Source: Microcystis aeruginosa NIES-843
GTDB taxonomy: Bacteria; Cyanobacteriota; Cyanobacteriia; Cyanobacteriales; Microcystaceae
Assembly: GCF_000010625.1 (NCBI RefSeq)
Contig: NC_010296.1
Coordinates: 2,160,001-2,192,000 of the forward strand
DNA length: 32,000 nt
Reading direction: 5' to 3'
Shown here: positions 632 through 22,233 of the stretch, one piece after another
Layout: each line of letters starts with the position of its first letter
Numbering within the stretch: position 1 is the first letter of the stretch
Translations under genes and position numbers: made by a program
The notes under the pieces: model-generated
What the model was told of the DNA's origin: nothing
Database searches by the model: none
Seen by the model: the letters and a program-made list of their open reading frames with translations, nothing else

Positions 632-765
632 ATAAGTGGTTATAATTAAATAGAAGATAGATTTTGGGTTCGATCCCCCCTGCCCCCCTTGATAAGGGGG
701 GTGCCGATAGGCGGGGGGATCCCCCTTAATAAGGGGGGCTGACGATTTTAACACCTACCTACTTA
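632..765. repeat. MITE-like repeat, copy 1 (same family as 30645..30789)
   Basis: About 134 bp. Shares with copy 2 the left end ..TAAGT.GTTATAATTAAAT.GAAGATAGATTTTG and the right end TTTTAACACCTACCTACTTA. The termini are imperfect inverted repeats (TAAGTA.GTAG). The interior holds G6/C6 palindromes (CCCCCCTT.ATAAGGGGGG). It lies between convergent ycf54 and the PLD gene. Confidence 0.65.
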
Positions 766-7401: not shown

Positions 7402-8286
7402 ATGCTTGCTATTCTCTCCGCTATTGTTCCAGTGGGTTTTATCATCCTCATCGGTGTGATAGCAGGAAAAATTCTCACTGTGGAAGTGCATTCCCTTTCC
7501 CAAATAACGGTGTATATTCTTGCTCCCGCTTTAGTGATTGATGGACTCTATCGCACCACTTTATCCGGCAGCAATATCGGTTTAATTCTCCTAGGTTTTG
7601 CTCTTATTTCACTGGTAATGGTGATTATCGTCGAAATTATCGCCTATTGTCTTAGTCTCGATGGTGATACCCGCAAAAGCCTCATGGCTGCCGCTGTGAT
7701 GCCCAATAACGGCAATATGGGTTTACCGGTGGCTAGTTTTGCCCTGGGTGCGGCTGGACTGGAAAGAGCGATAATCTATATGATTGGTTCTAGTATTCTG
7801 TTATTTGGTATTAGTCCCGCTTATTTGCGAGGAAAAAGCTTTCTTTCAGGATTTCGCCTGGTTTTTCAATTGCCCTTAATCTGGTCAATTTTTATCGGCA
7901 TTAGCTTTCAAACTTTCTCTTTTCATCTTCCCCTGCAATTAGATAAAAGTATTAGCTATCTAGGACAATCGGCAATTCCTTTGGCTTTAATTATCCTAGG
8001 TATCCAATTATCTCAGCAAAAATTAGCGATCGGTAAATTAGAATTATTAGGGGCTGGTTTGCGTCTTTTAGTCGCTCCTCTTTTGGCATTTGCGATCGGC
8101 AATAGTTTAGGATTAACCGGTATGGATCTAAAAATTCTTATCCTACAAAGTGCCATGCCCACCGCCGTTAATACCGTCATTTTAGTCACAGAATTCGGTG
8201 GTTCAGCAGCTTTAATGGCCCGCACAGTTGTGGTCACTACCCTTGCTAGTTTTCTGACTATTCCTTTCTTTCTTTGGTTATTATAG
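7402..8286 (+). CDS. AEC (auxin efflux carrier) family transporter
   Basis: 294 aa, about 10 hydrophobic segments. The N-terminus MLAILSAIVPVGFIILIGVIAGK and the C-terminal half SAMPTAVNTVILV are typical of the AEC/membrane transport protein family. Confidence 0.8.
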   Translation: MLAILSAIVPVGFIILIGVIAGKILTVEVHSLSQITVYILAPALVIDGLYRTTLSGSNIGLILLGFALISLVMVIIVEIIAYCLSLDGDTRKSLMAAAVMPNNGNMGLPVASFALGAAGLERAIIYMIGSSILLFGISPAYLRGKSFLSGFRLVFQLPLIWSIFIGISFQTFSFHLPLQLDKSISYLGQSAIPLALIILGIQLSQQKLAIGKLELLGAGLRLLVAPLLAFAIGNSLGLTGMDLKILILQSAMPTAVNTVILVTEFGGSAALMARTVVVTTLASFLTIPFFLWLL

Positions 8287-9231
8287 TTATTTCAAATAAG
8301 AACGAGACACTAGGCGACACAATAAGTACGAATAATTTCATCAAGGGGTGTCCCCACAGGAGCATACATTCTTGCCCTCTTTAATGCACTAAAATCATGT
8401 TCGATATCATTTAAATCAGGAGAGTATTTTGGCAAAAACACGACCTGATGACCTGCTTCCTCTACCAGTTGTTTAATGACTGTCTTCCGATGAATTGGTG
8501 CATTATCCATAATTAATACTGATGTTATGGTTAGAGAGGGCAACAAATATAAAGATAACCACCCTTCAAAACCTTCGGCATTCAGGCTTCTCGTAAATAC
8601 CATCGGTGCAATAAAGTCTTTTTTTCCCTTTCTTCTACCAGCGACAAGGTTCTCTCTTTTTCCTCGTTTTCCTTGTCTATCTCCAAAGACTTTCTTCCCT
8701 TTTTTTGACCAAGCATAAAAACAGGCTTGAAATTCTTCAAACCCTGACTCATCAATAAATACAAGGCTTTCACTTCCATATATTTTAATCAATTCTCTCA
8801 GCACTCTGTAGTATTTCATTCTTTCTTCTCGGTTTCTTTCTCTATAACGAAGTTCCTTCTTTTTTCTGGTAACTTTCATGTTTTTTAAGGCATAGCAAAT
8901 GGCACTTGGTCTCACTCCAAATTTCTCGGCTCTGTCTCTTAATCTTGCCTCGGGATTTTCTTGGACATCTTTTGACAGTGCTTTCCAGTCCAGCTTTCTC
9001 TGACGGTGTTTTACCTTTGTTGCTTCCAGTTTTTCCCTACCTAGCCATCTATATATCGTCGCTCTTCCTATATTAAATAGAGCGGCGGCTTTGGTTATGC
9101 TTCCCCCATTCTCTACATAATCGATTACTTTTTTTCTCAAGTCTAGGCTATAAGACATTTTTCTGTATGGGTTGCTCGTTTCTCTTGATTTTACCTTATT
9201 TTTCCCTCGTCTCACACTTATTTGAAATGAC
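8286..9231 (-). mobile_element. IS630-family insertion sequence, apparently intact, flanked by a TA target duplication
   Basis: Terminal inverted repeats GTTATTTCAAATAAGAACGAGAC (8286-) and GTCATTTCAAATAAGTGTGAGAC (reverse complement of -9231). TA lies at 8284-8285 and 9232-9233. It contains a single DDE transposase ORF. Confidence 0.85.
8310..9215 (-). CDS. IS630-family DDE transposase
   Basis: N-terminal HTH (SITKAAALFNIGRATIYRW). Catalytic triad context VFIDESGF, LIMDNAPIHR, YSPDLNDIEHDF (DD35E-type spacing). The likely true start is MSYSLDL at 9158; the ORF track extension runs into the terminal repeat. Confidence 0.9.
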   Translation of the reverse strand: MRRGKNKVKSRETSNPYRKMSYSLDLRKKVIDYVENGGSITKAAALFNIGRATIYRWLGREKLEATKVKHRQRKLDWKALSKDVQENPEARLRDRAEKFGVRPSAICYALKNMKVTRKKKELRYRERNREERMKYYRVLRELIKIYGSESLVFIDESGFEEFQACFYAWSKKGKKVFGDRQGKRGKRENLVAGRRKGKKDFIAPMVFTRSLNAEGFEGWLSLYLLPSLTITSVLIMDNAPIHRKTVIKQLVEEAGHQVVFLPKYSPDLNDIEHDFSALKRARMYAPVGTPLDEIIRTYCVA

Positions 9232-9249
9232 TATAAAAGTCTATTTATA

Positions 9250-9294
9250 AGTAGGGTTTGCGGCAAAAAGTTTGTTGGTGGGGTTAGGAGTCAG
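9250..9294 (+). repeat. Gene-3'-end repeat family, copy A (AGTAGGGTTTGCGGCAAAAAGTTTGTTGGTGGGGTTAGGAGTCAG)
   Basis: Nearly identical to 16019..16062 (one substitution, one deletion). The first 25 nt also occur inverted at 20871..20895. Confidence 0.85.
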
Positions 9295-9573
9295 GAGTCG
9301 GTCGTCAGGAGTCAGGATTCTCCGAGTCAGGAGTCAGGAGTCAGGAGATAGGAGATTATTTTATTTATTCTCCCCACACCCCACACCCCACACCCCACAC
9401 CCCACACCCCACTTCCCCACTTCCCCAATTCCCACACCCCACACCCCACACCCCACACCCCACTTCCCCAATTCCCACACCCCACACCCCACACCCCACA
9501 CCCCACACCCCACACCCCACTTCCCCACTTCCCACTTCCCACTTCCCACTTCCCAATTCATAATTCATAATTT
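9286..9573. repeat. Composite heptanucleotide tandem-repeat tract: (AGGAGTC)n, then (CCCCACA)n/(CTTCCCA)n, then (AATTCAT)2
   Basis: Contiguous 7-nt units visible by eye. The minus strand reads (GGGGTGT)n. The four overlapping track ORFs here translate to low-complexity PHTPHP / GVWGVG strings. Confidence 0.95.
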
Positions 9574-10859
9574 AACCTTTGACTCACCCCGGCAATAGCA
9601 GCCAAGAGAAACCAAACAATAGTATTAATCTTGACATCGGAGAGGGTGACATCGACGAGATTAAATAAAACACAAGCGCCAAAAGCTACCAGATAGGTAA
9701 AGATAATTAACTCCCCCCCGGCTTTTTGTTGTCGTAAAAAGATTAATAAACGCACCCCTTGGGCATAAATCCAACCCACCCAAGCGGACAATAAAATTAA
9801 GCCAATAATTCCCGTTTCTGCCATTAACATCAAATATAAATTATGGGGATGACCTAACCATAATCCCTGACTTTTTTCGTAGAGAGGTGTAAAACTGCGT
9901 AATCCCCAACCGAATAGGGGTCTTTCTTGGGTCATTTCGAGAGTAAAACGCCATTGAGTTGATCTGAGAGTCGCTAGAGGGCGATCAGGGAACATTTCAT
10001 CGGATAATCGCGCCCAAATCGTCCTAGGAACCAAAAAACGCACACTATCCCTTAAAGGATTTGGTCCCCAAGAAGCGAGGGAAATCACCCCCCCCAAGAG
10101 GATAAAACCGGCGACTAAGGCATTCCAACCCAGATAAAGGGCGAAAATTAGGCCTCCTAAAAAGGCTAAGGCCCAAGCATTGCGAGAATTGCTTAAAAAT
10201 AGCCCTACACCGTCGATCAATATGGTTAAAGTTAAAAACCCGACTTTGAGATTTAAAAGGGTATTTCTTTGTCTGTGCCACTGCCGCAAAGTTAGAATTA
10301 ATAAACCGATCGCTAAAATCAGAGTTATTAATAAATAAGCCCCCAAAAGATTAGCATACATAAAAACCGAAGACATCCGCCCGCTCGGTTCACCCCCCGC
10401 CCCGTAGGGCCAGGTAAAAATCCCTTTTAATGCTTCCGGTTTTTGCCAACCGAGAAAAATTTGTCCCCATCCCATCACCACTACCCAAACCGACGGAATA
10501 ACCATCACCCAAGCTAGTTGACGCAATTGAGAGGGTTTTTTAATTAATTGCCGAATATTGCTAAAAAAGAAGAAAAAAGGCAGGAAATTTCCTAAACCAA
10601 TCCAAGCATCCCCCGGAGTTGGGGAAAGACTGGCACTAATCATCAACCAAAGAGTGACGATACCGAGACCTTGATTAAGACGTGACCGGATAATTGCCCG
10701 AAAATTGCCGGTAAAAACCCTAATTAAGACGATAATAATGCCGATACCCGCTAACTCCGGCAGCATCATGGCAATAAAAACTGAAAAAAGTATTAAATTC
10801 CACTCCCACCCTTGACAAAAAATTTTTTTCATGCTATGCAGGCTGCCAACAATCGTCAC
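9558..10859 (-). CDS. O-antigen ligase (Wzy_C) domain membrane protein, IctB-like
   Basis: Polytopic membrane protein with the Wzy_C-type loop WRFTLEMTQERPLFGWGLRSF and GHPHNLYLMLMAETGIIG. Cyanobacterial IctB homologues have this architecture. The alternative start MKKIF at 10832 would remove the overlap with the upstream gene. Confidence 0.65.
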   Translation of the reverse strand: MTIVGSLHSMKKIFCQGWEWNLILFSVFIAMMLPELAGIGIIIVLIRVFTGNFRAIIRSRLNQGLGIVTLWLMISASLSPTPGDAWIGLGNFLPFFFFFSNIRQLIKKPSQLRQLAWVMVIPSVWVVVMGWGQIFLGWQKPEALKGIFTWPYGAGGEPSGRMSSVFMYANLLGAYLLITLILAIGLLILTLRQWHRQRNTLLNLKVGFLTLTILIDGVGLFLSNSRNAWALAFLGGLIFALYLGWNALVAGFILLGGVISLASWGPNPLRDSVRFLVPRTIWARLSDEMFPDRPLATLRSTQWRFTLEMTQERPLFGWGLRSFTPLYEKSQGLWLGHPHNLYLMLMAETGIIGLILLSAWVGWIYAQGVRLLIFLRQQKAGGELIIFTYLVAFGACVLFNLVDVTLSDVKINTIVWFLLAAIAGVSQRLNYEL

Positions 10860-13289: not shown

Positions 13290-15353
13290 ATGCCTCAATA
13301 TACTACTAAACAAGCAACGGAAAACCCTGTTGTGTCCGACCAGTCCGCCAAGAATCCCTTTTCACTATTTGGTCAATTTTGGGAAAGCCTAAAAATTGTC
13401 GCTCAACCCTATTGGTATCCAACGGAGTTAAATGGACGTGCCTTTGGAGATGTGATCATTTCTTGGGGGATGTCAGCTTTGATTCTTTTAAGTATCTTGG
13501 CAACGGTGGGGGTAGAAGCTTTTAGTAGCTACTGGAATCGTTATGTACTCGACATTATTATTGAAGATAGAGATCTTTCTAAATATCTAAATACGCTGTG
13601 GTTATCCAGTTTGTTGATTATATTAACAACGGGGTTATTTGCTTTTTCTCAATTTATTCGTCGCAAAGTAGCCTTAGATTGGTATAAGTGGTTAACGAAA
13701 CAAACCGTCAAAAAATATCTCAATTATCGCGCTTATTATAACATTGATTTTACCTCAGCTTTAAAAAATCCCGATCAAAGATTATCTCAAGAAATTGAAC
13801 CAATTACGACCATGACCCTAAGGTTGTTAATTACCTTCGTGGAAAAAGGGTTACAAATGATTACTTTTGCGATTATTCTTTGGACAATTTCTCGGCAAAT
13901 TGCGGTTTATCTAATAATTTATACGATCGCAGGAAATTTCATAGCAATTTATCTAACTCAAGAATTAAACAAGATTAATCAATCTGAGCTTAATAATAAA
14001 GCTGATTATAATTATGCTTTAACCCATGTGCGTAACCACGCCGAATCCATTGCTTTTTTTCAGGGAGAAGAGCAGGAAGAAAAAATCATTGAAGGCCGTT
14101 TTGAACGGGTTATTCAAAGCTCGGAAAAACTGATAAATTGGGAACGGTTTAATAATCTTTTTAATCGAGGTTATCAGTCAGCGATTAGTGTATTTTCAAT
14201 GTTTATTTTGACCCCGATGTTTATTAAAAATGAAATCGATTATGGGGAAATAAGTCAAGCGAGTTTATGCTGTTTCCTTTTTTCTAATGCCTTGGGACAA
14301 TTAATTACTGAATGGGGAACATCGGGTAAAGTTTCAAGTTATATTGAACGGTTAGCTACCTTGACAGATGCCTTAAAAGTTGCCAGTGAAGAGCCGAAAA
14401 ACTTAAGTCGTATTATCACCCTGGAAGATAATCGTCTAGCTTTTGAAAATTTTACCCTACAAACTCCCGATTATGAAAAGGTAATTGTGGAGAATTTATC
14501 GGTTTCTGTCCCTTTGGGAGAAAGCCTACTGATTATTGGCCCCAGTGGTCGAGGAAAAAGTTCCTTGTTACGAGCAATCGCCGGTTTATGGAAAGCAGGT
14601 AGCGGCCGTTTAGTGCGTCCTCCTTTAGCTAAAATGTTATTTTTGCCCCAACGTCCTTATATTATCCTTGGCAGTTTACGCCAGCAATTACTTTATCCCC
14701 ATACCAATGATCAGGTGAGCGATGAAGAATTAGAAAATATCTTAAAAAAAGTCAACCTGCAACATTTATTAACTGACAAAAATAGCTTAGATAAAGAAGT
14801 CAACTGGGAACAAATTTTATCTCTGGGAGAACAACAAAGATTAGCTTTTGCTCGACTATTAATCACTAAACCTACCTTTACTATCTTAGATGAAGCAACT
14901 AGCGCTTTAGATTTGGCCAATGAAGCCAGCTTATATCAGCAATTACAGGAAAGTGAAACCACTTTTATTAGTGTTGGTCATCGGGAAAGTTTATTTAATT
15001 ATCATCGATGGGTCTTAGAGTTAACAGAAAATTCCCATTGGCAGCTGTCAACTGTAGAAGATTATCAGCGCAAAAAAGTGAATAACCTAGTGATGATGTC
15101 AAAAAAATCAGAAAATTTTTCGGCGGTAAAAATAGAGACTTTGTCTGAGGTTAAAACTGAGCATGATGCGGAAATTGCAGGAGTTTCTGAAATAGCCGAA
15201 GGTTTGTCCCATCAACAAATGCAGTCCCTAACTGATTATTCTTTAAGTAGCGTTCGTAATCGAGCCAGTTTAGGTAAAATCATTACTGCCAAAGATGGTT
15301 TTAATTATCGTTACGATAAAGACCCAAAAACCTTAAAATGGGTGAGAATATAG
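13290..15353 (+). CDS. ABC transporter, fused permease/ATPase of the ABCD / SbmA-BacA-like type (ABC membrane 2); positional candidate for microviridin transporter MdnE
   Basis: Walker A GPSGRGKSS, signature LSLGEQQRLAFARL, Walker B FTILDEATSALD. The TMD ends with NHAESIAFFQGEEQE, like the ABCD-family EEIAFYGG motif. A tail of about 90 aa beyond the NBD has no recognisable motif. Confidence 0.85.
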   Translation: MPQYTTKQATENPVVSDQSAKNPFSLFGQFWESLKIVAQPYWYPTELNGRAFGDVIISWGMSALILLSILATVGVEAFSSYWNRYVLDIIIEDRDLSKYLNTLWLSSLLIILTTGLFAFSQFIRRKVALDWYKWLTKQTVKKYLNYRAYYNIDFTSALKNPDQRLSQEIEPITTMTLRLLITFVEKGLQMITFAIILWTISRQIAVYLIIYTIAGNFIAIYLTQELNKINQSELNNKADYNYALTHVRNHAESIAFFQGEEQEEKIIEGRFERVIQSSEKLINWERFNNLFNRGYQSAISVFSMFILTPMFIKNEIDYGEISQASLCCFLFSNALGQLITEWGTSGKVSSYIERLATLTDALKVASEEPKNLSRIITLEDNRLAFENFTLQTPDYEKVIVENLSVSVPLGESLLIIGPSGRGKSSLLRAIAGLWKAGSGRLVRPPLAKMLFLPQRPYIILGSLRQQLLYPHTNDQVSDEELENILKKVNLQHLLTDKNSLDKEVNWEQILSLGEQQRLAFARLLITKPTFTILDEATSALDLANEASLYQQLQESETTFISVGHRESLFNYHRWVLELTENSHWQLSTVEDYQRKKVNNLVMMSKKSENFSAVKIETLSEVKTEHDAEIAGVSEIAEGLSHQQMQSLTDYSLSSVRNRASLGKIITAKDGFNYRYDKDPKTLKWVRI

Positions 15354-15392
15354 CTAATGGGGTGACAAACAGATTGAAAGTGAGACAGAGTA

Positions 15393-15455
15393 TTCAGACT
15401 TCCCCCTCTCAGGAGAACTAGAGAATCAGGTTTTTGCTGGGTAAGTTGATTAACA
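15393..15455. repeat. Left arm of a perfect 63-bp inverted repeat flanking mdnD
   Basis: TTCAGACTTCCCCCTCTCAGGAGAACTAGAGAATCAGGTTTTTGCTGGGTAAGTTGATTAACA is the exact reverse complement of 16112..16174. Confidence 0.95.
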
Positions 15456-15464
15456 AGCTACTAA

Positions 15465-15481
15465 CTGATAACTGATAACTG
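15465..15481. repeat. Heptanucleotide repeat (CTGATAA)x2.5
   Basis: Lies just inside the left IR arm and mirrors the longer (TTATCAG)7 array inside the right arm. Confidence 0.9.
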
Positions 15482-15499
15482 GTATAGGAGTTTTATCAC

Positions 15500-16033
15500 A
15501 TGAAAGCACTGGAAAAACTGGTGACGGAACGATTATATTTAGTCCCCTTCAAGCTTGAACTTCTCAAGGCCGCAATTATAGGTATCGATGAATTAGCAAC
15601 AATTTTGGGGGTAAAAGTTGCAGCTGACTGGGCCGAACAAGAGTTGATTCAAGCTTTCCCTGATATTGCGAATATTTTGCTGCAATTCCCCTTACAAAAT
15701 GAGTGGGGGTGGGGGAGTTTAATTATTCATCAAACAGAAAATACCCTTATTGGTCATGTGATGATCAAAATTATTCCTGATGTCACAGGTTTACCCACAG
15801 ATGCTGTAGAAATTGGCTATCAAGTAGCGCCGTTATATCGACGACAAGGCTACGCATCTGAGGCGACAAAAGCAATGATGGACTGGACACTTTCTCAACC
15901 TGGTATGCAAACAGTGACCGCTGGCTGCGCTCCCGATAATATAGCTTCAAAGCGAGTTTTAGAAAAAATAGGCATGGATCTGATAGAAGCACGAGAGAAA
16001 GTCTTGGTCTGGAAATTAAGTAGGGTTTGCTGA
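15500..16033 (+). CDS. mdnD: GNAT family N-acetyltransferase, microviridin N-acetyltransferase MdnD candidate
   Basis: GNAT motif A (YRRQGYASEATKAMMDW). RimJ/RimL-like N-terminus (TERLYLVPF). AGGAG RBS 9 nt upstream. Adjacent to mdnC. Confidence 0.75.
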   Translation: MKALEKLVTERLYLVPFKLELLKAAIIGIDELATILGVKVAADWAEQELIQAFPDIANILLQFPLQNEWGWGSLIIHQTENTLIGHVMIKIIPDVTGLPTDAVEIGYQVAPLYRRQGYASEATKAMMDWTLSQPGMQTVTAGCAPDNIASKRVLEKIGMDLIEAREKVLVWKLSRVC

Positions 16034-16062
16034 AAAAGTTTGTTGGTGGGGTTAGGAGTCAG
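16019..16062 (+). repeat. Gene-3'-end repeat family, copy B, overlapping the last four codons and stop of mdnD
   Basis: AGTAGGGTTTGCTGAAAAAGTTTGTTGGTGGGGTTAGGAGTCAG. Compare 9250..9294. Confidence 0.85.
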
Positions 16063-16111
16063 TTATCAGTTATCAGTTATCAGTTATCAGTTATCAGTTA
16101 TCAGTTATCAG
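16061..16111. repeat. Heptanucleotide tandem repeat (AGTTATC)x7, the reverse complement of the CTGATAA family
   Basis: Seven perfect contiguous units immediately inside the right IR arm. Confidence 0.95.
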
Positions 16112-16174
16112 TGTTAATCAACTTACCCAGCAAAAACCTGATTCTCTAGTTCTCCTGAGAGGGGGAAGTCTGAA
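16112..16174. repeat. Right arm of the perfect 63-bp inverted repeat flanking mdnD
   Basis: Exact reverse complement of 15393..15455. Confidence 0.95.
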
Positions 16175-16181
16175 AAATTTT

Positions 16182-16213
16182 CCCTACACCCCACACCCCA
16201 CACCCTACACCCT
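16182..16213. repeat. (CCCTACA/CCCCACA) heptamer tract; the minus strand is G-rich (GGGTGTR)n
   Basis: CCCTACACCCCACACCCCACACCCTACACCC. Same unit family as 9372-9520 and 20828-20862. Confidence 0.9.
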
Positions 16214-16296
16214 CTTTCAAGTCAGTAGTCGGGGGGGAAATCTGGAGTCAGAGCCTCGTCGATGCGATAAAATACTCTGGCTCTGTATTTGTTGGT

Positions 16297-17271
16297 TTAT
16301 GAGTTAACTAGGATTTCAGCGATCGCCTGGGAGATAGGAAAATAAGGAGGATAAAGTTCTAGCCAGAAAAACTCGCCAACGGGATTAATTTCTAAAAAGA
16401 TATAACGTTCATCTGGTGTGACAATCATATCAATTGCACCATAATTAAGACCGAAATATTTCACTAATTCTAGTAGTTGTTTTTCAATAGTTTTCGGTAA
16501 ATCGTAGGGTTGCCATTGTTGATGGAGCGCTCTTCCCTCTTTTCGCCAATCGTAGATAGCACCGTCTAATTGTTGGGAATTAATCGCCGCCGTAAATATT
16601 TGTTCACCGACGATAGTGATGCGTAATTCCAAAGCTTTAGGAATGTTTTCCTGAAAAGTCATTGGACAAAATTGCAAACCTTCCAAATTATCTAGGTCTT
16701 CCTTTGTAACAGGACTGGTAAAAACAACCATTTCCTCTTGCTTGTCTCCATAAATAGCAAATTGAGAAAGCATTTTAGTCACAATTCCCGTCGCTTCAAA
16801 CTCCTGAGCAAATTGCTTGACAGCTTCAGGATTATTAGAAGTTAAAGTCCCCGGAATTAATAAACCTAATTGTTGCGCCACTTGTAACTGCAATTGTTTA
16901 TGATTGGCATGATCTACCTTAGCAATTGGATCAAGATGAAAGCCAGATAAACTAGCAATCATTCCTCGAATACTTAACCGACATTCCTTAAGAGAAGCTT
17001 CGCGAAATTGACTATCCATCCCATCGGGTAATTTTAGTCCGTATCTCATGCGTCGATACCAGACAGAAGAAACTTCTTTTAGCTCTAATTTTTGTTCTCC
17101 ATCGGTAATAATTCCGCCTTTTTGACCGCCTGAGTAAAGATCAACTTTCACCTCTGTAGGGAAGCGATCAGTATCAAAACGGAAGGCTTTTTTACCCATG
17201 GCTTCTATGGCTTTGATTACCAGAGGAATACTTTCATTATCGTGGCTAAAAGTAACAATTAAAACGGTCAT
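16297..17271 (-). CDS. mdnC: Microviridin ATP-grasp ligase MdnC (omega-ester / lactone-forming)
   Basis: ATP-grasp fold motifs (ELRITIVGEQIF, YDWR, YIFLEINPVGEF). From memory the sequence matches Microcystis MdnC, which starts MTVLIVTFS. That ATG at 17271 has an AAGGA RBS. The track ORF start at 17328 is an upstream extension overlapping mdnB. Confidence 0.9.
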   Translation of the reverse strand: MTVLIVTFSHDNESIPLVIKAIEAMGKKAFRFDTDRFPTEVKVDLYSGGQKGGIITDGEQKLELKEVSSVWYRRMRYGLKLPDGMDSQFREASLKECRLSIRGMIASLSGFHLDPIAKVDHANHKQLQLQVAQQLGLLIPGTLTSNNPEAVKQFAQEFEATGIVTKMLSQFAIYGDKQEEMVVFTSPVTKEDLDNLEGLQFCPMTFQENIPKALELRITIVGEQIFTAAINSQQLDGAIYDWRKEGRALHQQWQPYDLPKTIEKQLLELVKYFGLNYGAIDMIVTPDERYIFLEINPVGEFFWLELYPPYFPISQAIAEILVNS

Positions 17272-17324
17272 AGATTTCCTTGAAAACTTAATATTAACAA
17301 TTTTTTGAGCGCCAGCTTTGCCGA

Positions 17325-18305
17325 TCAACCGAAGACTAAAAAATCAGCGATCGCATTAGAAATAGGTAAATCTAAATCCCGTTCTAACATTCCCCACTCA
17401 CCACCCGGATTAACTTCTAAAAAAACGTATTCTCCCCCAGGAGTTAAGATAAAATCAAACGCCCCAAAATTCAACCCTAAATTAGCCATAAAAATCTGAA
17501 GTTGCTGCAATAGTGAATCAGGTAAAGTATGATGTTGCCAAGCACCCGGATCAATACCCGGTCTTCGCCAATCTACGGCAGAATTATTATACTGAGAAGA
17601 TTCTAAAGCTCCCACAAATGTCTGTCCATTAACCACGACAACTCTCAATTCTAATTGTTTGGGAATTTCCGCTTGAAAAACCATAGGACAATAGCGTAAA
17701 GATTCCGCTTCCTCAAGGTCTTCTGCTTTCACCCTACTGGTATAAAGAAAAAATTCCGGCGACTCCATACTTCTGGCGATCGCAGTTAACAATTTACTCA
17801 CCATTCTTCCCTGAACCTGGGAAAAAAACTCCCGGGCAGCATCAGGATTATTGGTAACTAAAGTGGGGGGGATAATCAAGCCAACTTCTGAGGCCAAACG
17901 AAGTTGTAATAACTTATTTTTAGCCCTCTCAATTTGCGCTAAATTATCTAACCAACGCGCTGACCTTAAACTATCCCAAAAACTAGCCAAAGTCGTCTGG
18001 GATTCTCGCACACAAGCCTCCCGAAACTGAGGATCTAAATCCGCTGTTATTTCAGGTTGCCAAATACGTCTTGTCCAAACAGATTGCACCTGTTCACTAT
18101 CAATAGATTGATGGTTATAGGTTAATTGATAAAAACTTTTTTTCCCATTAAATTGGGCTGCTAATTGAACCTCTAAGGGAAATTTATCGGTATCTAAGCG
18201 AAAAGGTGTGGCTCCTTTTTTTTCTATCGCCTCAGCCACGCGGTCAATCGTGAAAAAATCGCCGCTATGGGTCAACAATAAAACAACTTTAGGCGATTCT
18301 TTCAT
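17325..18305 (-). CDS. mdnB: Microviridin ATP-grasp ligase MdnB (omega-amide / lactam-forming)
   Basis: Paralogue of the downstream ATP-grasp (ELRVVVVNGQTF, VDWR, YVFLEVNPGGEW). First enzyme gene after the precursor, as in mdnABC. Confidence 0.9.
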   Translation of the reverse strand: MKESPKVVLLLTHSGDFFTIDRVAEAIEKKGATPFRLDTDKFPLEVQLAAQFNGKKSFYQLTYNHQSIDSEQVQSVWTRRIWQPEITADLDPQFREACVRESQTTLASFWDSLRSARWLDNLAQIERAKNKLLQLRLASEVGLIIPPTLVTNNPDAAREFFSQVQGRMVSKLLTAIARSMESPEFFLYTSRVKAEDLEEAESLRYCPMVFQAEIPKQLELRVVVVNGQTFVGALESSQYNNSAVDWRRPGIDPGAWQHHTLPDSLLQQLQIFMANLGLNFGAFDFILTPGGEYVFLEVNPGGEWGMLERDLDLPISNAIADFLVFG

Positions 18306-18583
18306 GTCAATTGCAAATCCCTATATTTTAACCCATTTTAAGGCTTTTGGGCGGATATTTATCGAGAAGAATCTCAATAAAAGGCGGAAAAAATTGCTGC
18401 TTTTGCTTAACTAATTGCAGTATTTGTTTTTTTCTTGAGTAATTACTAAAGTTACTTTACAGCACTTCTCAGGATCTCAACGTGCAGTTTTTTTGGCTGC
18501 GAGCCTTGCTTAGTGGAGCTTTTAGCTTTTTGTCTGTACGGTGTAATCAAGAAAAGTGCTGCAATTACTCAAGTGATCTGAGT

Positions 18584-18736
18584 TTAATAATCTTCCCAGT
18601 CAGAAGGGTATTTAAAGGTGCCCCCGTAGGTAGGCTCAGGGGAAGGAGACTTGATGGAAGATTCCTCTTTGCTTACGGACAAGAAACGAGCAAAGAAAGG
18701 AAGTGCTTTACCTTGTTGATCGTTGGGATATGCCAT
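18584..18736 (-). CDS. mdnA: Microviridin precursor peptide MdnA (50 aa); not present in the supplied ORF track
   Basis: The reverse complement of 18736..18584 reads ATG GCA TAT CCC ... GAT TAT TAA = MAYPNDQQGKALPFFARFLSVSKEESSIKSPSPEPTYGGTFKYPSDWEDY*. It has the PFFARFL leader recognition motif, the TxKYPSDWE(D/E) core and a GAGGA RBS 6-7 nt upstream. Confidence 0.93.
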   Translation of the reverse strand: MAYPNDQQGKALPFFARFLSVSKEESSIKSPSPEPTYGGTFKYPSDWEDY

Positions 18737-20683: not shown

Positions 20684-20827
20684 ATTTACTAACTAACTAG
20701 GGTTTGCTCAATAAATCTAAAAACATTGTTCGATAATACTTTTAGACCTTTTTGAAATCCAAAAGTACCGGCCATTGGAGTGATCGGGGGGAAAATTTAG
20801 GGACTTTTTCCCTGAAAATGGGTAAAA

Positions 20828-20862
20828 CCCTACACCCTACACCCCACACCCCACACCCTGCC
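20828..20862. repeat. (CCCTACA/CCCCACA) heptamer tract; the minus strand is G-rich
   Basis: CCCTACA CCCTACA CCCCACA CCCCACA CCCTGCC. It lies in the 3' region of the Mrp/ApbC gene. Confidence 0.9.
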
Positions 20863-20870
20863 CCCAAGAA

Positions 20871-20895
20871 AAACTTTTTGCCGCAAACCCTAACT
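20871..20895 (-). repeat. Gene-3'-end repeat family, copy C (inverted), overlapping the stop codon of the Mrp/ApbC gene
   Basis: The reverse complement reads AGTTAGGGTTTGCGGCAAAAAGTTT. The TAG within it is the stop of the 20890..21972 CDS. Confidence 0.8.
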
Positions 20896-22191: not shown

Positions 22192-22233
22192 CTGATAACT
22201 GATAACTGATAACTGATAACTGATAACTGATAA
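22192..22233. repeat. Heptanucleotide tandem repeat (CTGATAA)x6
   Basis: Six perfect units. The neighbouring (AGGCAAN)x4 at about 22099-22127 and (TAGATCTC)x2.5 at about 22245-22266 overlap the MOSC stop codon region. Confidence 0.95.

What the first reader, a model, noticed from the sequence alone, without database searches (positions are those of the whole stretch)
15393..16174. Perfect 63-bp inverted repeat brackets the acetyltransferase gene mdnD: possible invertible or RNase III-excisable cassette
15393..15455 and 16112..16174 are exact reverse complements (63/63). Just inside each arm lies a CTGATAA-family heptamer array (2.5 units on the left, 7 on the right). Only mdnD, its RBS and repeat copy B lie between them (656 bp). 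Perfect identity over 63 bp in non-coding DNA implies very recent duplication, gene conversion or selection. Two consequences follow.
1. Homologous or site-specific recombination between the arms would flip mdnD between co-orientation with the ABC gene (the present state) and co-orientation with mdnABC (the canonical state). This would be a switch for N-acetylation of the peptide.
2. Any read-through transcript from the ABC gene would fold into a 63-bp perfect dsRNA stem enclosing the mdnD mRNA, an ideal RNase III substrate analogous to rRNA processing stems.

I did not see this 63-mer elsewhere in the window.
Basis: partly seen in the sequence, partly recalled or inferred. Interest (0 to 1): 0.75.

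Follow-up and report, generated by a model that had tools for sequence, protein, structure and literature searches.

The report
Strain-specific inverted spacer copy around mdnD
The perfect 63-bp inverted repeat around the microviridin acetyltransferase gene is real. It is a rare, recent inverted copy of the upstream spacer pasted into the downstream spacer between heptamer-repeat arrays, and nothing suggests it is a gene-flipping switch.

Summary
Window 15393-15455 and 16112-16174 are exact reverse complements (63/63), 656 nt apart. They enclose only the ribosome-binding site, mdnD and a repeat "head".

The left arm is the ordinary, single-copy mdnE-mdnD spacer of Microcystis. It is present in 31 of 36 loci examined and occurs once per genome. 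The right arm occurs only in the window and two other assemblies.

The right copy matches the reverse complement of a long-form upstream spacer allele, found in other strains, for 76 nt. It is bounded by TAACTGA-type and CCCCACA-type heptamer arrays. These arrays occur in inverted orientation in both spacers. The simplest origin is gene conversion or template switching anchored in those arrays.

The same downstream spacer carries at least three other alternative inserts in other strains.

mdnD has the same orientation in all 36 Microcystis loci, and this is the normal Microcystis arrangement. In two other cyanobacterial loci (one from Nostoc minutum) mdnE→mdnD is a conserved co-oriented pair. 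The window encodes no invertase.

The 63-mer is dispensable. Five loci lack it and three carry a MITE (miniature transposable element) inside it.

A roughly 100-bp double-stranded RNA stem would form if both arms are co-transcribed. That is plausible but untested, and the stem is not conserved. Interest is low to moderate.

The parts
13290..15353 (+). mdnE, the ABC transporter (687 aa). It forms a conserved co-oriented pair with mdnD.
   Evidence: Pfam ABC_membrane_2 and ABC_tran. mdnE→mdnD adjacency on one strand in all Microcystis loci and in L027, L029 and L030.
15354..15392 (+). Outer part of the upstream spacer, 'short form'. It lacks the (GGGTGTG)n-GGGAAAATTTT segment that long-form alleles carry here.
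   Evidence: Comparison of spacers across loci.
15393..15455 (+). Left arm: the ancestral, single-copy 63-nt 'linker' of the mdnE-mdnD spacer.
   Evidence: Present at 96-100% identity in 31 of 36 Microcystis loci (in three of them split by a 104-bp MITE), always at this position. One copy per genome in 5 species-representative genomes. Absent from viral contigs, phages and plasmids. No intrinsic RNA fold (z +1.06).
15456..15461 (+). AGCTAC, part of a 9-nt indel (AGCTACTAA) between arm and array. It is absent from the right copy and from allele L016.
15462..15481 (+). Left TAACTGA-family heptamer array, 2.9 copies (1 to 17 or more CTGATAA units in other strains).
   Evidence: Tandem Repeats Finder. 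Copy-number variation.
15485..15490 (+). Shine-Dalgarno sequence TAGGAG of mdnD, 9 nt before the ATG.
   Evidence: Sequence. This segment is conserved even in the 90%-identity relative L027.
15500..16033 (+). mdnD, GNAT N-acetyltransferase (177 aa).
   Evidence: Pfam Acetyltransf_3. Identical protein recorded for M. aeruginosa NIES-843 (BAG02230.1).
16019..16058 (+). Cassette 'head' AGTAGGGTTTGCTGAAAAAGTTTGTTGGTGGGGTTAGGAG. It resembles a MITE terminal inverted repeat, supplies the mdnD stop codon, and has a paralogue at 9251-9290.
   Evidence: (D7).
16059..16111 (-). Right TAACTGA-family array, 7.7 copies. It is the only one of five such arrays in the window in inverted orientation, and it forms the inner homology anchor.
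16112..16174 (-). Right arm: the derived inverted copy of the 63-nt linker.
   Evidence: 100% complementary to the left arm. Present only in the window, L004 and L010 among 36 loci.
16175..16187 (-). A further 13 nt (AAAATTTTCCCTA) of the copied patch. It matches the long-form upstream allele of other strains, not this chromosome's own left spacer.
   Evidence: Exact 76-nt match of 16112-16187 to the reverse complement of the L008 and L048 upstream spacers.
16182..16213 (+). CCCTACA/CCCCACA heptamer array, the outer homology anchor. It is the inverted counterpart of the (GGGTGTG)n array in long-form upstream spacers.
16238..16290 (+). Hairpin followed by a U-rich tail on the + strand, a candidate mdnD/mdnC terminator. 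It places the right arm inside the mdnD 3' untranslated region.
   Evidence: Fold -17.1 kcal/mol, z -1.8. The sequence is present in every downstream spacer read in full, with some substitutions. The simple consensus terminator scan did not flag it.
16297..17328 (-). mdnC, ATP-grasp ligase, convergent with mdnD.
   Evidence: Pfam ATPgraspMvdD.

Best explanation
The right arm is a recent, lineage-restricted inverted copy of the ordinary mdnE-mdnD spacer 'linker', pasted into the mdnD-mdnC spacer.

In Microcystis the two spacers flanking mdnD are paralogous heptamer-array cassettes in inverted orientation. Upstream the cassette reads TTGAAAG-(GGGTGTG)n-linker-(CTGATAA)n, and the mirror image lies downstream. 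Normally the two linkers differ: the 63-mer plus GGGAAAATTTT upstream, and TTCACTGAGAAAACTCCCC downstream.

In the window's lineage, pairing of the inverted arrays on both sides of the linker allowed a non-reciprocal transfer. The mechanism was RecA-type gene conversion or a replication template switch. A patch of at least 76 nt from a long-form upstream allele overwrote the downstream linker. The result is a perfect 63-bp repeat relative to the present short-form left spacer.

Shown: the mosaic structure, the patch boundaries, the polarity (left ancestral, right derived), its rarity, and the invariant orientation of mdnD.

Inferred: the molecular mechanism, and that the repeat is a by-product of recombination rather than a selected device.

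Expected side-effects, also inferred:
1. mdnD is probably co-transcribed with mdnE and terminates at the hairpin at 16238-16290. If so, the RNA forms a stem of about 100 bp enclosing mdnD, a likely RNase III target.
2. Homologous recombination across 63 bp could invert mdnD at a low spontaneous rate. That would break the mdnE→mdnD unit.
For: - **Polarity and rarity.** The left arm is in 31 of 36 loci. The right arm is in 3 of 36 (window, L004, L010), which are 100% identical across the 3' end of mdnE, the arm and mdnD.
- **Single copy.** A 24-nt arm core gave 5 hits among 185,579 species genomes. All were Microcystis, one per genome, all in the mdnE-mdnD spacer. Viral contigs, phages and plasmids gave none.
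- **Mosaic structure.** The window's downstream spacer equals the common downstream allele up to the TTATCAG array and again from the CCCCACA array onward. Positions 16112-16187 are an exact 76-nt match to the reverse complement of the L008/L048 upstream spacer.
- **Junction variant.** The arm-CTGATAA junction of the right copy, which lacks AGCTACTAA, exists as a left-side allele in L016.
- **Pre-existing imperfect inverted repeat.** The upstream spacer and the reverse complement of the downstream spacer align collinearly in ordinary alleles, differing mainly in the linker.
- **Recurrence at this site.**
  - Five loci carry the downstream-type linker inverted in the upstream spacer. This gives a 57-nt (96%) plus 41-nt (90%) inverted repeat without any 63-mer.
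  - L008 and L015 carry the body of the cassette found at window 9245-9400.
  - Eight loci carry a MITE.
- **Published mechanism.** Template switching between inverted repeats is reported to homogenise repeat arms and to create RNA hairpins (abstracts of PMC8604942 and PMC8794818). MacGregor 2015 reports 265 TAACTGA repeat sets in NIES-843 and suggests a role in genome rearrangement (PMC4679880).
Against: - No direct observation of the event or of its mechanism.
- The 656-nt spacing is large for classical intrastrand template switching, so RecA-mediated conversion may be the better mechanistic label.
- The donor allele (long form) is not the one now on the same chromosome. An extra step is needed: a later deletion or replacement of the left outer segment, or an incoming donor from another strain.
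- Two independent alleles with long inverted repeats around mdnD could also be read as selection for a stem.
- Only three repeat-bearing assemblies were available, so low-frequency inversion cannot be excluded.
- The origin of the reciprocal allele's linker is ambiguous, because related linker motifs occur at other array cassettes.
Confidence: 0.72

Rival explanations
1. RNA-level device. The two arms, plus the inverted TAACTGA arrays, form a long double-stranded stem in an mdnE-mdnD transcript. RNase III cleaves the stem, separating and stabilising or destabilising the mdnD message, and so tunes N-acetylation in this lineage.
For: - The predicted minimum-energy structure of 15380-16195 contains about 100 long-range pairs. 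The arm duplex alone is -121 kcal/mol, and -156 kcal/mol with the arrays.
- No terminator-like site lies between mdnE and mdnD. A hairpin with a U-rich tail lies beyond the right arm. mdnE→mdnD adjacency is conserved across genera, which fits an operon.
- A second allele class (L036 type) also brackets mdnD with a long inverted repeat of different sequence.
Against: - The 63-bp pair is present in only 3 of 36 loci.
- Eight loci have no downstream TAACTGA array at all because a MITE occupies the spacer, and mdnD is intact there.
- Five loci lack the 63-mer and three have it interrupted.
- Predicted Shine-Dalgarno accessibility is not lowered by the repeat: 0.71 unpaired against 0.01-0.67 in other alleles.
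- No transcript data were available, and Rfam gave no family match.
- Gene conversion alone produces such stems without selection.
Confidence: 0.15
2. Invertible DNA switch. Recombination between the arms flips mdnD, turning N-acetylation on and off.
For: A perfect 63-bp inverted repeat, plus about 20 bp of array, exceeds the minimal homology needed for RecA-dependent recombination (general knowledge). Occasional inversion is therefore physically possible. The arms bracket exactly one gene.
Against: - mdnD orientation is invariant in 36 of 36 loci, including all three repeat-bearing ones.
- The inner junctions are in the parental configuration in all three.
- No invertase or integrase is encoded in the 32-kb window. 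The only mobile-element gene is an IS630 transposase about 6 kb away.
- The paired arms are not conserved.
- Flipping would break the conserved mdnE→mdnD pair.
- No promoter-like site lies in the arms.
- A metagenome scan for the arm-CTGATAA junction found only a left-side indel variant, with mdnD in the usual orientation.
Confidence: 0.05
3. Mobile-element ends. The arms are terminal inverted repeats of a MITE-like or composite element that carries mdnD.
For: Microcystis spacers here are full of MITEs. Examples are the 104-bp insert in L002, the roughly 330-bp insert in L042, the element at window 20700-20893, and the sequence resembling a MITE terminal inverted repeat at the mdnD stop codon.
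Against: - The arm is single-copy per genome and always at this locus.
- The left arm exists without the right one in 28 loci.
- No target-site duplication flanks the arms.
- mdnD sits next to mdnE in genera that lack the arms.
Confidence: 0.02
4. Assembly artefact: a fold-back chimera.
For: Inverted duplications can arise from assembly or amplification errors (general knowledge).
Against: The same structure, base for base, is present in two independent assemblies from different samples (L004, L010). Logan contigs break at the arm boundary, as expected for a true repeat.
Confidence: 0.01

Closest known systems
Homogenisation of inverted-repeat arms by template switching or gene conversion (quasipalindrome-associated mutation)
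   Same: An imperfect inverted repeat is made perfect by copying one arm's sequence into the other in inverted orientation. The patch boundaries fall in shared homology. The event can create long RNA hairpins without selection (PMC8604942, PMC8794818, PMC7202029).
   Different: The arms here are about 650 nt apart and enclose a whole gene. The homology anchors are tandem heptamer arrays rather than short unique repeats. The donor allele differs from the present left spacer, which implies an extra recombination step.
TAACTGA heptamer direct repeats of cyanobacteria and Beggiatoaceae (MacGregor 2015, PMC4679880)
   Same: The inner arrays are TAACTGA repeats. [quoted passage not shown] Microcystis is reported to hold hundreds of such sets mixed with other heptamers.
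   Different: That work proposes translational regulation and, for long arrays, a possible role in rearrangement, but gives no example. Here the arrays are seen as the boundaries of an actual sequence transfer.
Site-specific invertible segments (fimS, Hin/Gin, shufflons)
   Same: Inverted repeats bracket a short segment.
   Different: There is no cognate recombinase and no alternative orientation in any genome. The arms are long, perfect and not conserved. The segment carries a whole gene rather than a promoter or alternative gene ends.
RNase III processing stems flanking rRNA or operon segments
   Same: Long complementary sequences flank a functional RNA and would pair in a read-through transcript.
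   Different: The pairing is not conserved across strains, and cleavage and co-transcription are unverified. A 63-bp perfect duplex is far longer than typical mRNA RNase III sites.

Membership tests
Site-specific invertible DNA switch | Inverted repeats flank the segment | tested here: met
   63/63 inverted repeat, 656 nt apart.
Site-specific invertible DNA switch | A cognate invertase or tyrosine recombinase is encoded nearby | tested here: not met
   Pfam scans of 29 window ORFs (27 of them at least 90 aa, two shorter ones near mdnA; one 108-aa ORF lying within heptamer arrays was not scanned) found none. There is only an IS630 DDE transposase at 8310-9215.
Site-specific invertible DNA switch | Both orientations occur among genomes or reads | tested here: not met
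   mdnD is in the same orientation in 36 of 36 loci, including the 3 with both arms. Read-level data were not available.
Site-specific invertible DNA switch | The paired repeats are conserved in relatives | tested here: not met
   The right arm is in 3 of 36 loci and in 0 of 5 species-representative genomes.
RNase III processing stem | Long, near-perfect intramolecular double-stranded RNA | tested here: met
   In silico only: about 100 long-range pairs, with an arm duplex of -121 kcal/mol.
RNase III processing stem | Both arms lie on one transcript | not testable with these tools
   Indirect evidence only: no terminator-like site between mdnE and mdnD, a hairpin with a U-rich tail beyond the right arm, and a conserved mdnE→mdnD pair.
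RNase III processing stem | The stem is conserved or covaries among relatives | tested here: not met
   The 63-bp stem is confined to one lineage. MITE alleles have no complementary downstream array.
RNase III processing stem | RNase III-dependent cleavage | not testable with these tools
   This needs RACE or RNA-seq in wild-type and rnc backgrounds.
MITE or composite transposon | Multiple dispersed copies of the terminal repeats | tested here: not met
   One copy per genome, always in the mdnE-mdnD spacer. None elsewhere in 328 kb of fetched loci.
MITE or composite transposon | Target-site duplication flanks the element | tested here: not met
   The outer flanks are ...GAGTAT and AAAATTTT..., with no direct repeat.
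Inverted-repeat homogenisation (template switch or gene conversion) | A pre-existing imperfect inverted repeat provides homology on both sides of the converted tract | tested here: met
   The upstream spacer and the reverse complement of the downstream spacer are collinear cassettes with G-rich and TAACTGA arrays on either side of the linker.
Inverted-repeat homogenisation (template switch or gene conversion) | The converted tract is identical to the other arm's allele, and the ancestral state is retained in relatives | tested here: met
   A 76-nt exact match to the reverse complement of the L008/L048 upstream spacer. The ancestral downstream linker is present in the nearest relatives L003 and L009.
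Inverted-repeat homogenisation (template switch or gene conversion) | The mechanism is observed or shown to depend on genotype (RecA, replication) | not testable with these tools
   Requires experiments.
TAACTGA heptamer repeat sets | Two or more tandem TAACTGA units in intergenic DNA | tested here: met
   2.9 and 7.7 copies flank mdnD, with three further sets in the window.

The most novel reading that the evidence does not exclude
Heptamer-array cassettes in Microcystis act as portable homology anchors. They repeatedly copy unique spacer sequence between intergenic regions in either orientation. Around mdnD, the resulting 60-100-bp inverted repeats arose at least twice with different sequences. 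On this reading they are retained because the double-stranded RNA stem they form makes mdnD expression, and hence microviridin N-acetylation, RNase III-dependent and variable between strains.
Probability: 0.08. Interest if true: 0.6.

Novelty: new member of a known kind. Interest (0 to 1): 0.3.

Why it matters
The finding gives a concrete, base-resolved example of how the abundant heptamer arrays of Microcystis can drive rearrangement. Until now that role has only been suggested. Sequence between two arrays can be overwritten from a paralogous cassette, even in inverted orientation.

For microviridin work, it shows that the spacers around mdnD are a hot spot. At least five allele classes differ in repeat content, and some alter the C-terminus of MdnD. 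This could underlie strain differences in mdnD expression.

It also warns against reading a perfect inverted repeat around a gene as a switch without population data.

Tried and rejected
- **Dispersed-repeat test.** A 24-nt arm core was scanned against species-representative genomes. It gave 5 single hits, all at the mdn locus, so the dispersed-repeat and MITE readings were rejected.
- **Search for a flipped isoform.** The diagnostic arm-CTGATAA junction was scanned in metagenome contigs. The one locus found (L016) turned out to be a left-side indel variant with normal orientation.
- **Limit of short-read graphs.** With k=31, graph contigs cannot reveal inversion between 63-bp perfect arms, because no new k-mers are created. 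The Logan contigs are therefore uninformative about orientation (reasoning).
- **Exact-protein look-ups.** The window's MdnC (343 aa) is not on record. MdnB and the ABC protein were found only in non-NIES-843 records. The window is therefore not NIES-843, although its MdnD is identical to the NIES-843 protein. Its MdnA core YGGTFKYPSDWEDY has a calculated acetylated tricyclic mass of 1714.7. This matches the 1715 listed for microviridin L (PMC7823629 Table 2). No conclusion about acetylation in this strain was drawn.
- **Rfam scan** of 15000-16600: nothing relevant.
- **Consensus scans:** no promoter in the arms and no terminator called.
- **Fold of the 63-mer alone:** no structure.
- **Phage, plasmid and viral-contig searches:** no match.
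- **Shine-Dalgarno accessibility model:** the repeat does not occlude the ribosome-binding site. Long-range predictions of this kind are noisy.
- **Literature.** Ziemert 2010 (PMC2876452), which might state the published gene orientation, is not held.
- **First script** with fuzzy regex timed out.
Full report
**Observation.** Window 15393-15455 and 16112-16174 are exact reverse complements (63/63), 656 nt apart. No third copy exists in the 32-kb window at up to 3 mismatches, and shuffles expect none. TAACTGA-family heptamer arrays lie just inside each arm, with 2.9 copies at 15462-15481 and 7.7 copies at 16059-16112. The enclosed segment holds a Shine-Dalgarno sequence (15485-15490) and mdnD at 15500-16033, a 177-aa GNAT acetyltransferase. 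It also holds a 40-nt 'head' (16019-16058) that is repeated at 9251-9290. The same two-arm structure is present base for base in two independent metagenome assemblies, L004 and L010, so it is not an assembly artefact.

**Gene context.** The order is mdnE/ABC (13290-15353, +), mdnD (+), mdnC (16297-17328, -), mdnB (17325-18305, -), mdnA (18584-18736, -). The MdnA core is YGGTFKYPSDWEDY. Its calculated acetylated tricyclic mass (1714.7) matches the 1715 listed for microviridin L (PMC7823629). MdnD is identical to the NIES-843 protein. The window's MdnB and ABC proteins are not those on record for that strain, so the source strain is a different Microcystis.

**Population comparison.** I collected 36 Microcystis loci spanning mdnE-mdnD, most of them also reaching mdnC, through exact-protein look-ups of MdnD variants and DNA pattern scans.
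- Gene orientation is the same in all 36.
- The left arm is present at 96-100% identity in 31 of them, always in the mdnE-mdnD spacer.
- The right arm is present only in the window, L004 and L010.
- A 24-nt arm core scanned against one genome for each of 185,579 species gave five hits. All were Microcystis, one copy each, all at this spacer.
- Viral contigs, phage records and plasmid records gave none.

The 63-mer is therefore neither a dispersed repeat nor a transposon end. The left arm is ancestral and the right arm is derived and rare.

**Anatomy of the derived copy.** The window's downstream spacer is a mosaic.
- From the mdnD stop through the TTATCAG array it equals the common downstream allele.
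- Positions 16112-16187 are an exact 76-nt match to the reverse complement of the long-form upstream spacer of other strains (L008, L048). That is the 63-mer plus 13 further nt, AAAATTTTCCCTA, which the window's own short-form left spacer lacks.
- From the CCCCACA array onward it again equals the common downstream allele.
- The inner junction of the copy (arm directly followed by CTGATAA, without AGCTACTAA) exists as a left-side variant in L016.

In ordinary alleles the upstream spacer and the reverse complement of the downstream spacer align collinearly as paralogous cassettes. The pattern is TTGAAAG-(GGGTGTG)n-linker-(CTGATAA)n, and they differ mainly in the linker. The arrays on both sides therefore provide inverted homology. 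The patch is what a non-reciprocal transfer anchored in them would leave.

**Recurrence.** The same site shows other body swaps.
- Five loci (L032, L036, L037, L039, L043) lack the 63-mer. They carry the downstream-type linker inverted in the upstream spacer, giving a 57-nt (96%) plus 41-nt (90%) inverted repeat around mdnD.
- L008 and L015 carry the body of the cassette found at window 9245-9400.
- Eight loci carry a MITE.

The 63-mer is dispensable. It is absent in those five loci, and in L002, L041 and L044 it is split by a 104-bp MITE with the terminal repeat TACCAATTCTCCAAA. mdnE and mdnD are intact in all of these. It is not conserved in a relative whose MdnD is 90% identical (L027), where only the ribosome-binding region is recognisable.

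**The switch hypothesis.**
In Microcystis the window's arrangement is the universal one (36 of 36).
- In two distant loci (L029; L030, Nostoc minutum NIES-26) mdnE and mdnD are adjacent on one strand. L029 shows the full order A-B-C-E-D, and L030 has an ATP-grasp gene upstream on the same strand. The conserved unit is therefore mdnE→mdnD. Relative to L029, Microcystis differs by inversion of that whole pair, not of mdnD alone.
- No recombinase is encoded in the window. Pfam scans of 29 ORFs found only an IS630 transposase at 8310-9215, with its own terminal repeats.
- The three repeat-bearing assemblies all have the parental inner junctions.

Low-rate RecA-dependent inversion across 63 bp cannot be excluded from assemblies. 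Short-read graphs cannot show it either, because no new k-mers are created.

**The RNA hypothesis.** If both arms are on one transcript, the minimum-energy fold contains about 100 long-range pairs. The arm duplex is -121 kcal/mol, and -156 kcal/mol with the arrays. Co-transcription is plausible for three reasons.
- No terminator-like site lies between mdnE and mdnD.
- A hairpin with a U-rich tail lies beyond the right arm at 16238-16290.
- The mdnE→mdnD pair is conserved.

Against a designed function:
- The stem is confined to one lineage, and many strains have no complementary downstream array.
- The 63-mer alone has no structure (z +1.06).
- No Rfam family matches.
- Modelled accessibility of the Shine-Dalgarno sequence is not reduced by the repeat.

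RNase III cleavage is a reasonable expected side-effect, not an established function.

**Relation to what is known.** Template switching between inverted repeats is reported to homogenise repeat arms and to create and maintain RNA hairpins (PMC8604942, PMC8794818). TAACTGA repeats are described in cyanobacteria, with 265 sets in NIES-843 and a suggested role in genome rearrangement (PMC4679880). The present case is a new, well-resolved example of these known kinds. It is an array-anchored inverted conversion that happens to bracket a biosynthetic tailoring gene.

**Verdict.** The invertible-switch reading is not supported and rests on a wrong premise about the canonical orientation. The RNase III reading is untested and not conserved. 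Interest is low to moderate (0.3).

Noticed in passing
window 18321-18351 versus 15323-15353: A 31-nt inverted copy (90%) of the last codons of mdnE sits in the mdnA-mdnB spacer. The same copy is present in other strains' loci (L017, L018, L019, L021 and L023). It may be a scar of the rearrangement that inverted the mdnE-mdnD pair in Microcystis.
   Followed up: partly
window 16019-16058, 9251-9576 and 20700-20893; L042 upstream spacer: The mdnD stop codon lies inside a sequence (AGTAGGGTTTGCTGAAAAAGT...) that resembles the terminal inverted repeat of a MITE family seen at 20700-20893 and inserted in L042. A paralogous 'head + heptamer arrays + CCCCACA array' cassette sits at 9251-9576. Variants reading GCGGCAAAAAG remove the stop codon, as seen in L015, whose strain (LSC13-02) has a 197-aa MdnD in the 196-210-aa cluster P0002.
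   Followed up: partly
L002 5826-5928; L041 and L044 (same insertion): A 104-bp MITE (terminal repeats TACCAATTCTCCAAA / TTTAGAGAAATGGTA, apparent TAA duplication) is inserted inside the left 63-mer in three loci.
   Followed up: partly
window 8281-9236: An IS630-family element (transposase 8310-9215 on the minus strand, terminal repeats 8281-8308 / 9209-9236). No such gene is called between the Wzy_C-domain (O-antigen ligase-like) gene and the left edge of other strains' loci such as L001.
   Followed up: partly
L018 3530-3700: An mdn locus with the same MdnA as the window has no mdnD or mdnE after mdnC. It carries instead what looks like a remnant of a second microviridin core (…WKWPSDWED).
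   Followed up: no
window 15465, 16063-16111, 19358, 22192-22233, 27341-27403: Of five TAACTGA array sites in the window, four are in + orientation. Only the one downstream of mdnD is inverted. MacGregor 2015 noted a possible chromosome-wide orientation bias in NIES-843.
   Followed up: no
window 669-740 and 30689-30760: A palindrome-containing repeat of about 35 nt (GATCCCCCCTTAATCCCCCCTTAATAAGGGGGGTG) occurs as two perfect tandem copies at 30689-30760. Diverged tandem copies (63-66% identity) lie at 669-740. Similar flanks are shared 30 kb apart (629-681 versus 30646-30698, 87%).
   Followed up: no
window 16297-17328 and 17325-18305: The longest mdnC ORF (343 aa, TTG start) overlaps the end of mdnB by 4 nt. 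Some other assemblies call a 324-aa product with a 50-110-nt gap, so the mdnC start is uncertain.
   Followed up: no
upstream TAACTGA array, window 15462-15481 and homologous sites: The number of CTGATAA units between the 63-mer and the mdnD ribosome-binding site ranges from 1 to at least 17 among strains (L005, L015). This is heptamer slippage directly upstream of a start codon, of the kind proposed to affect translation.
   Followed up: no
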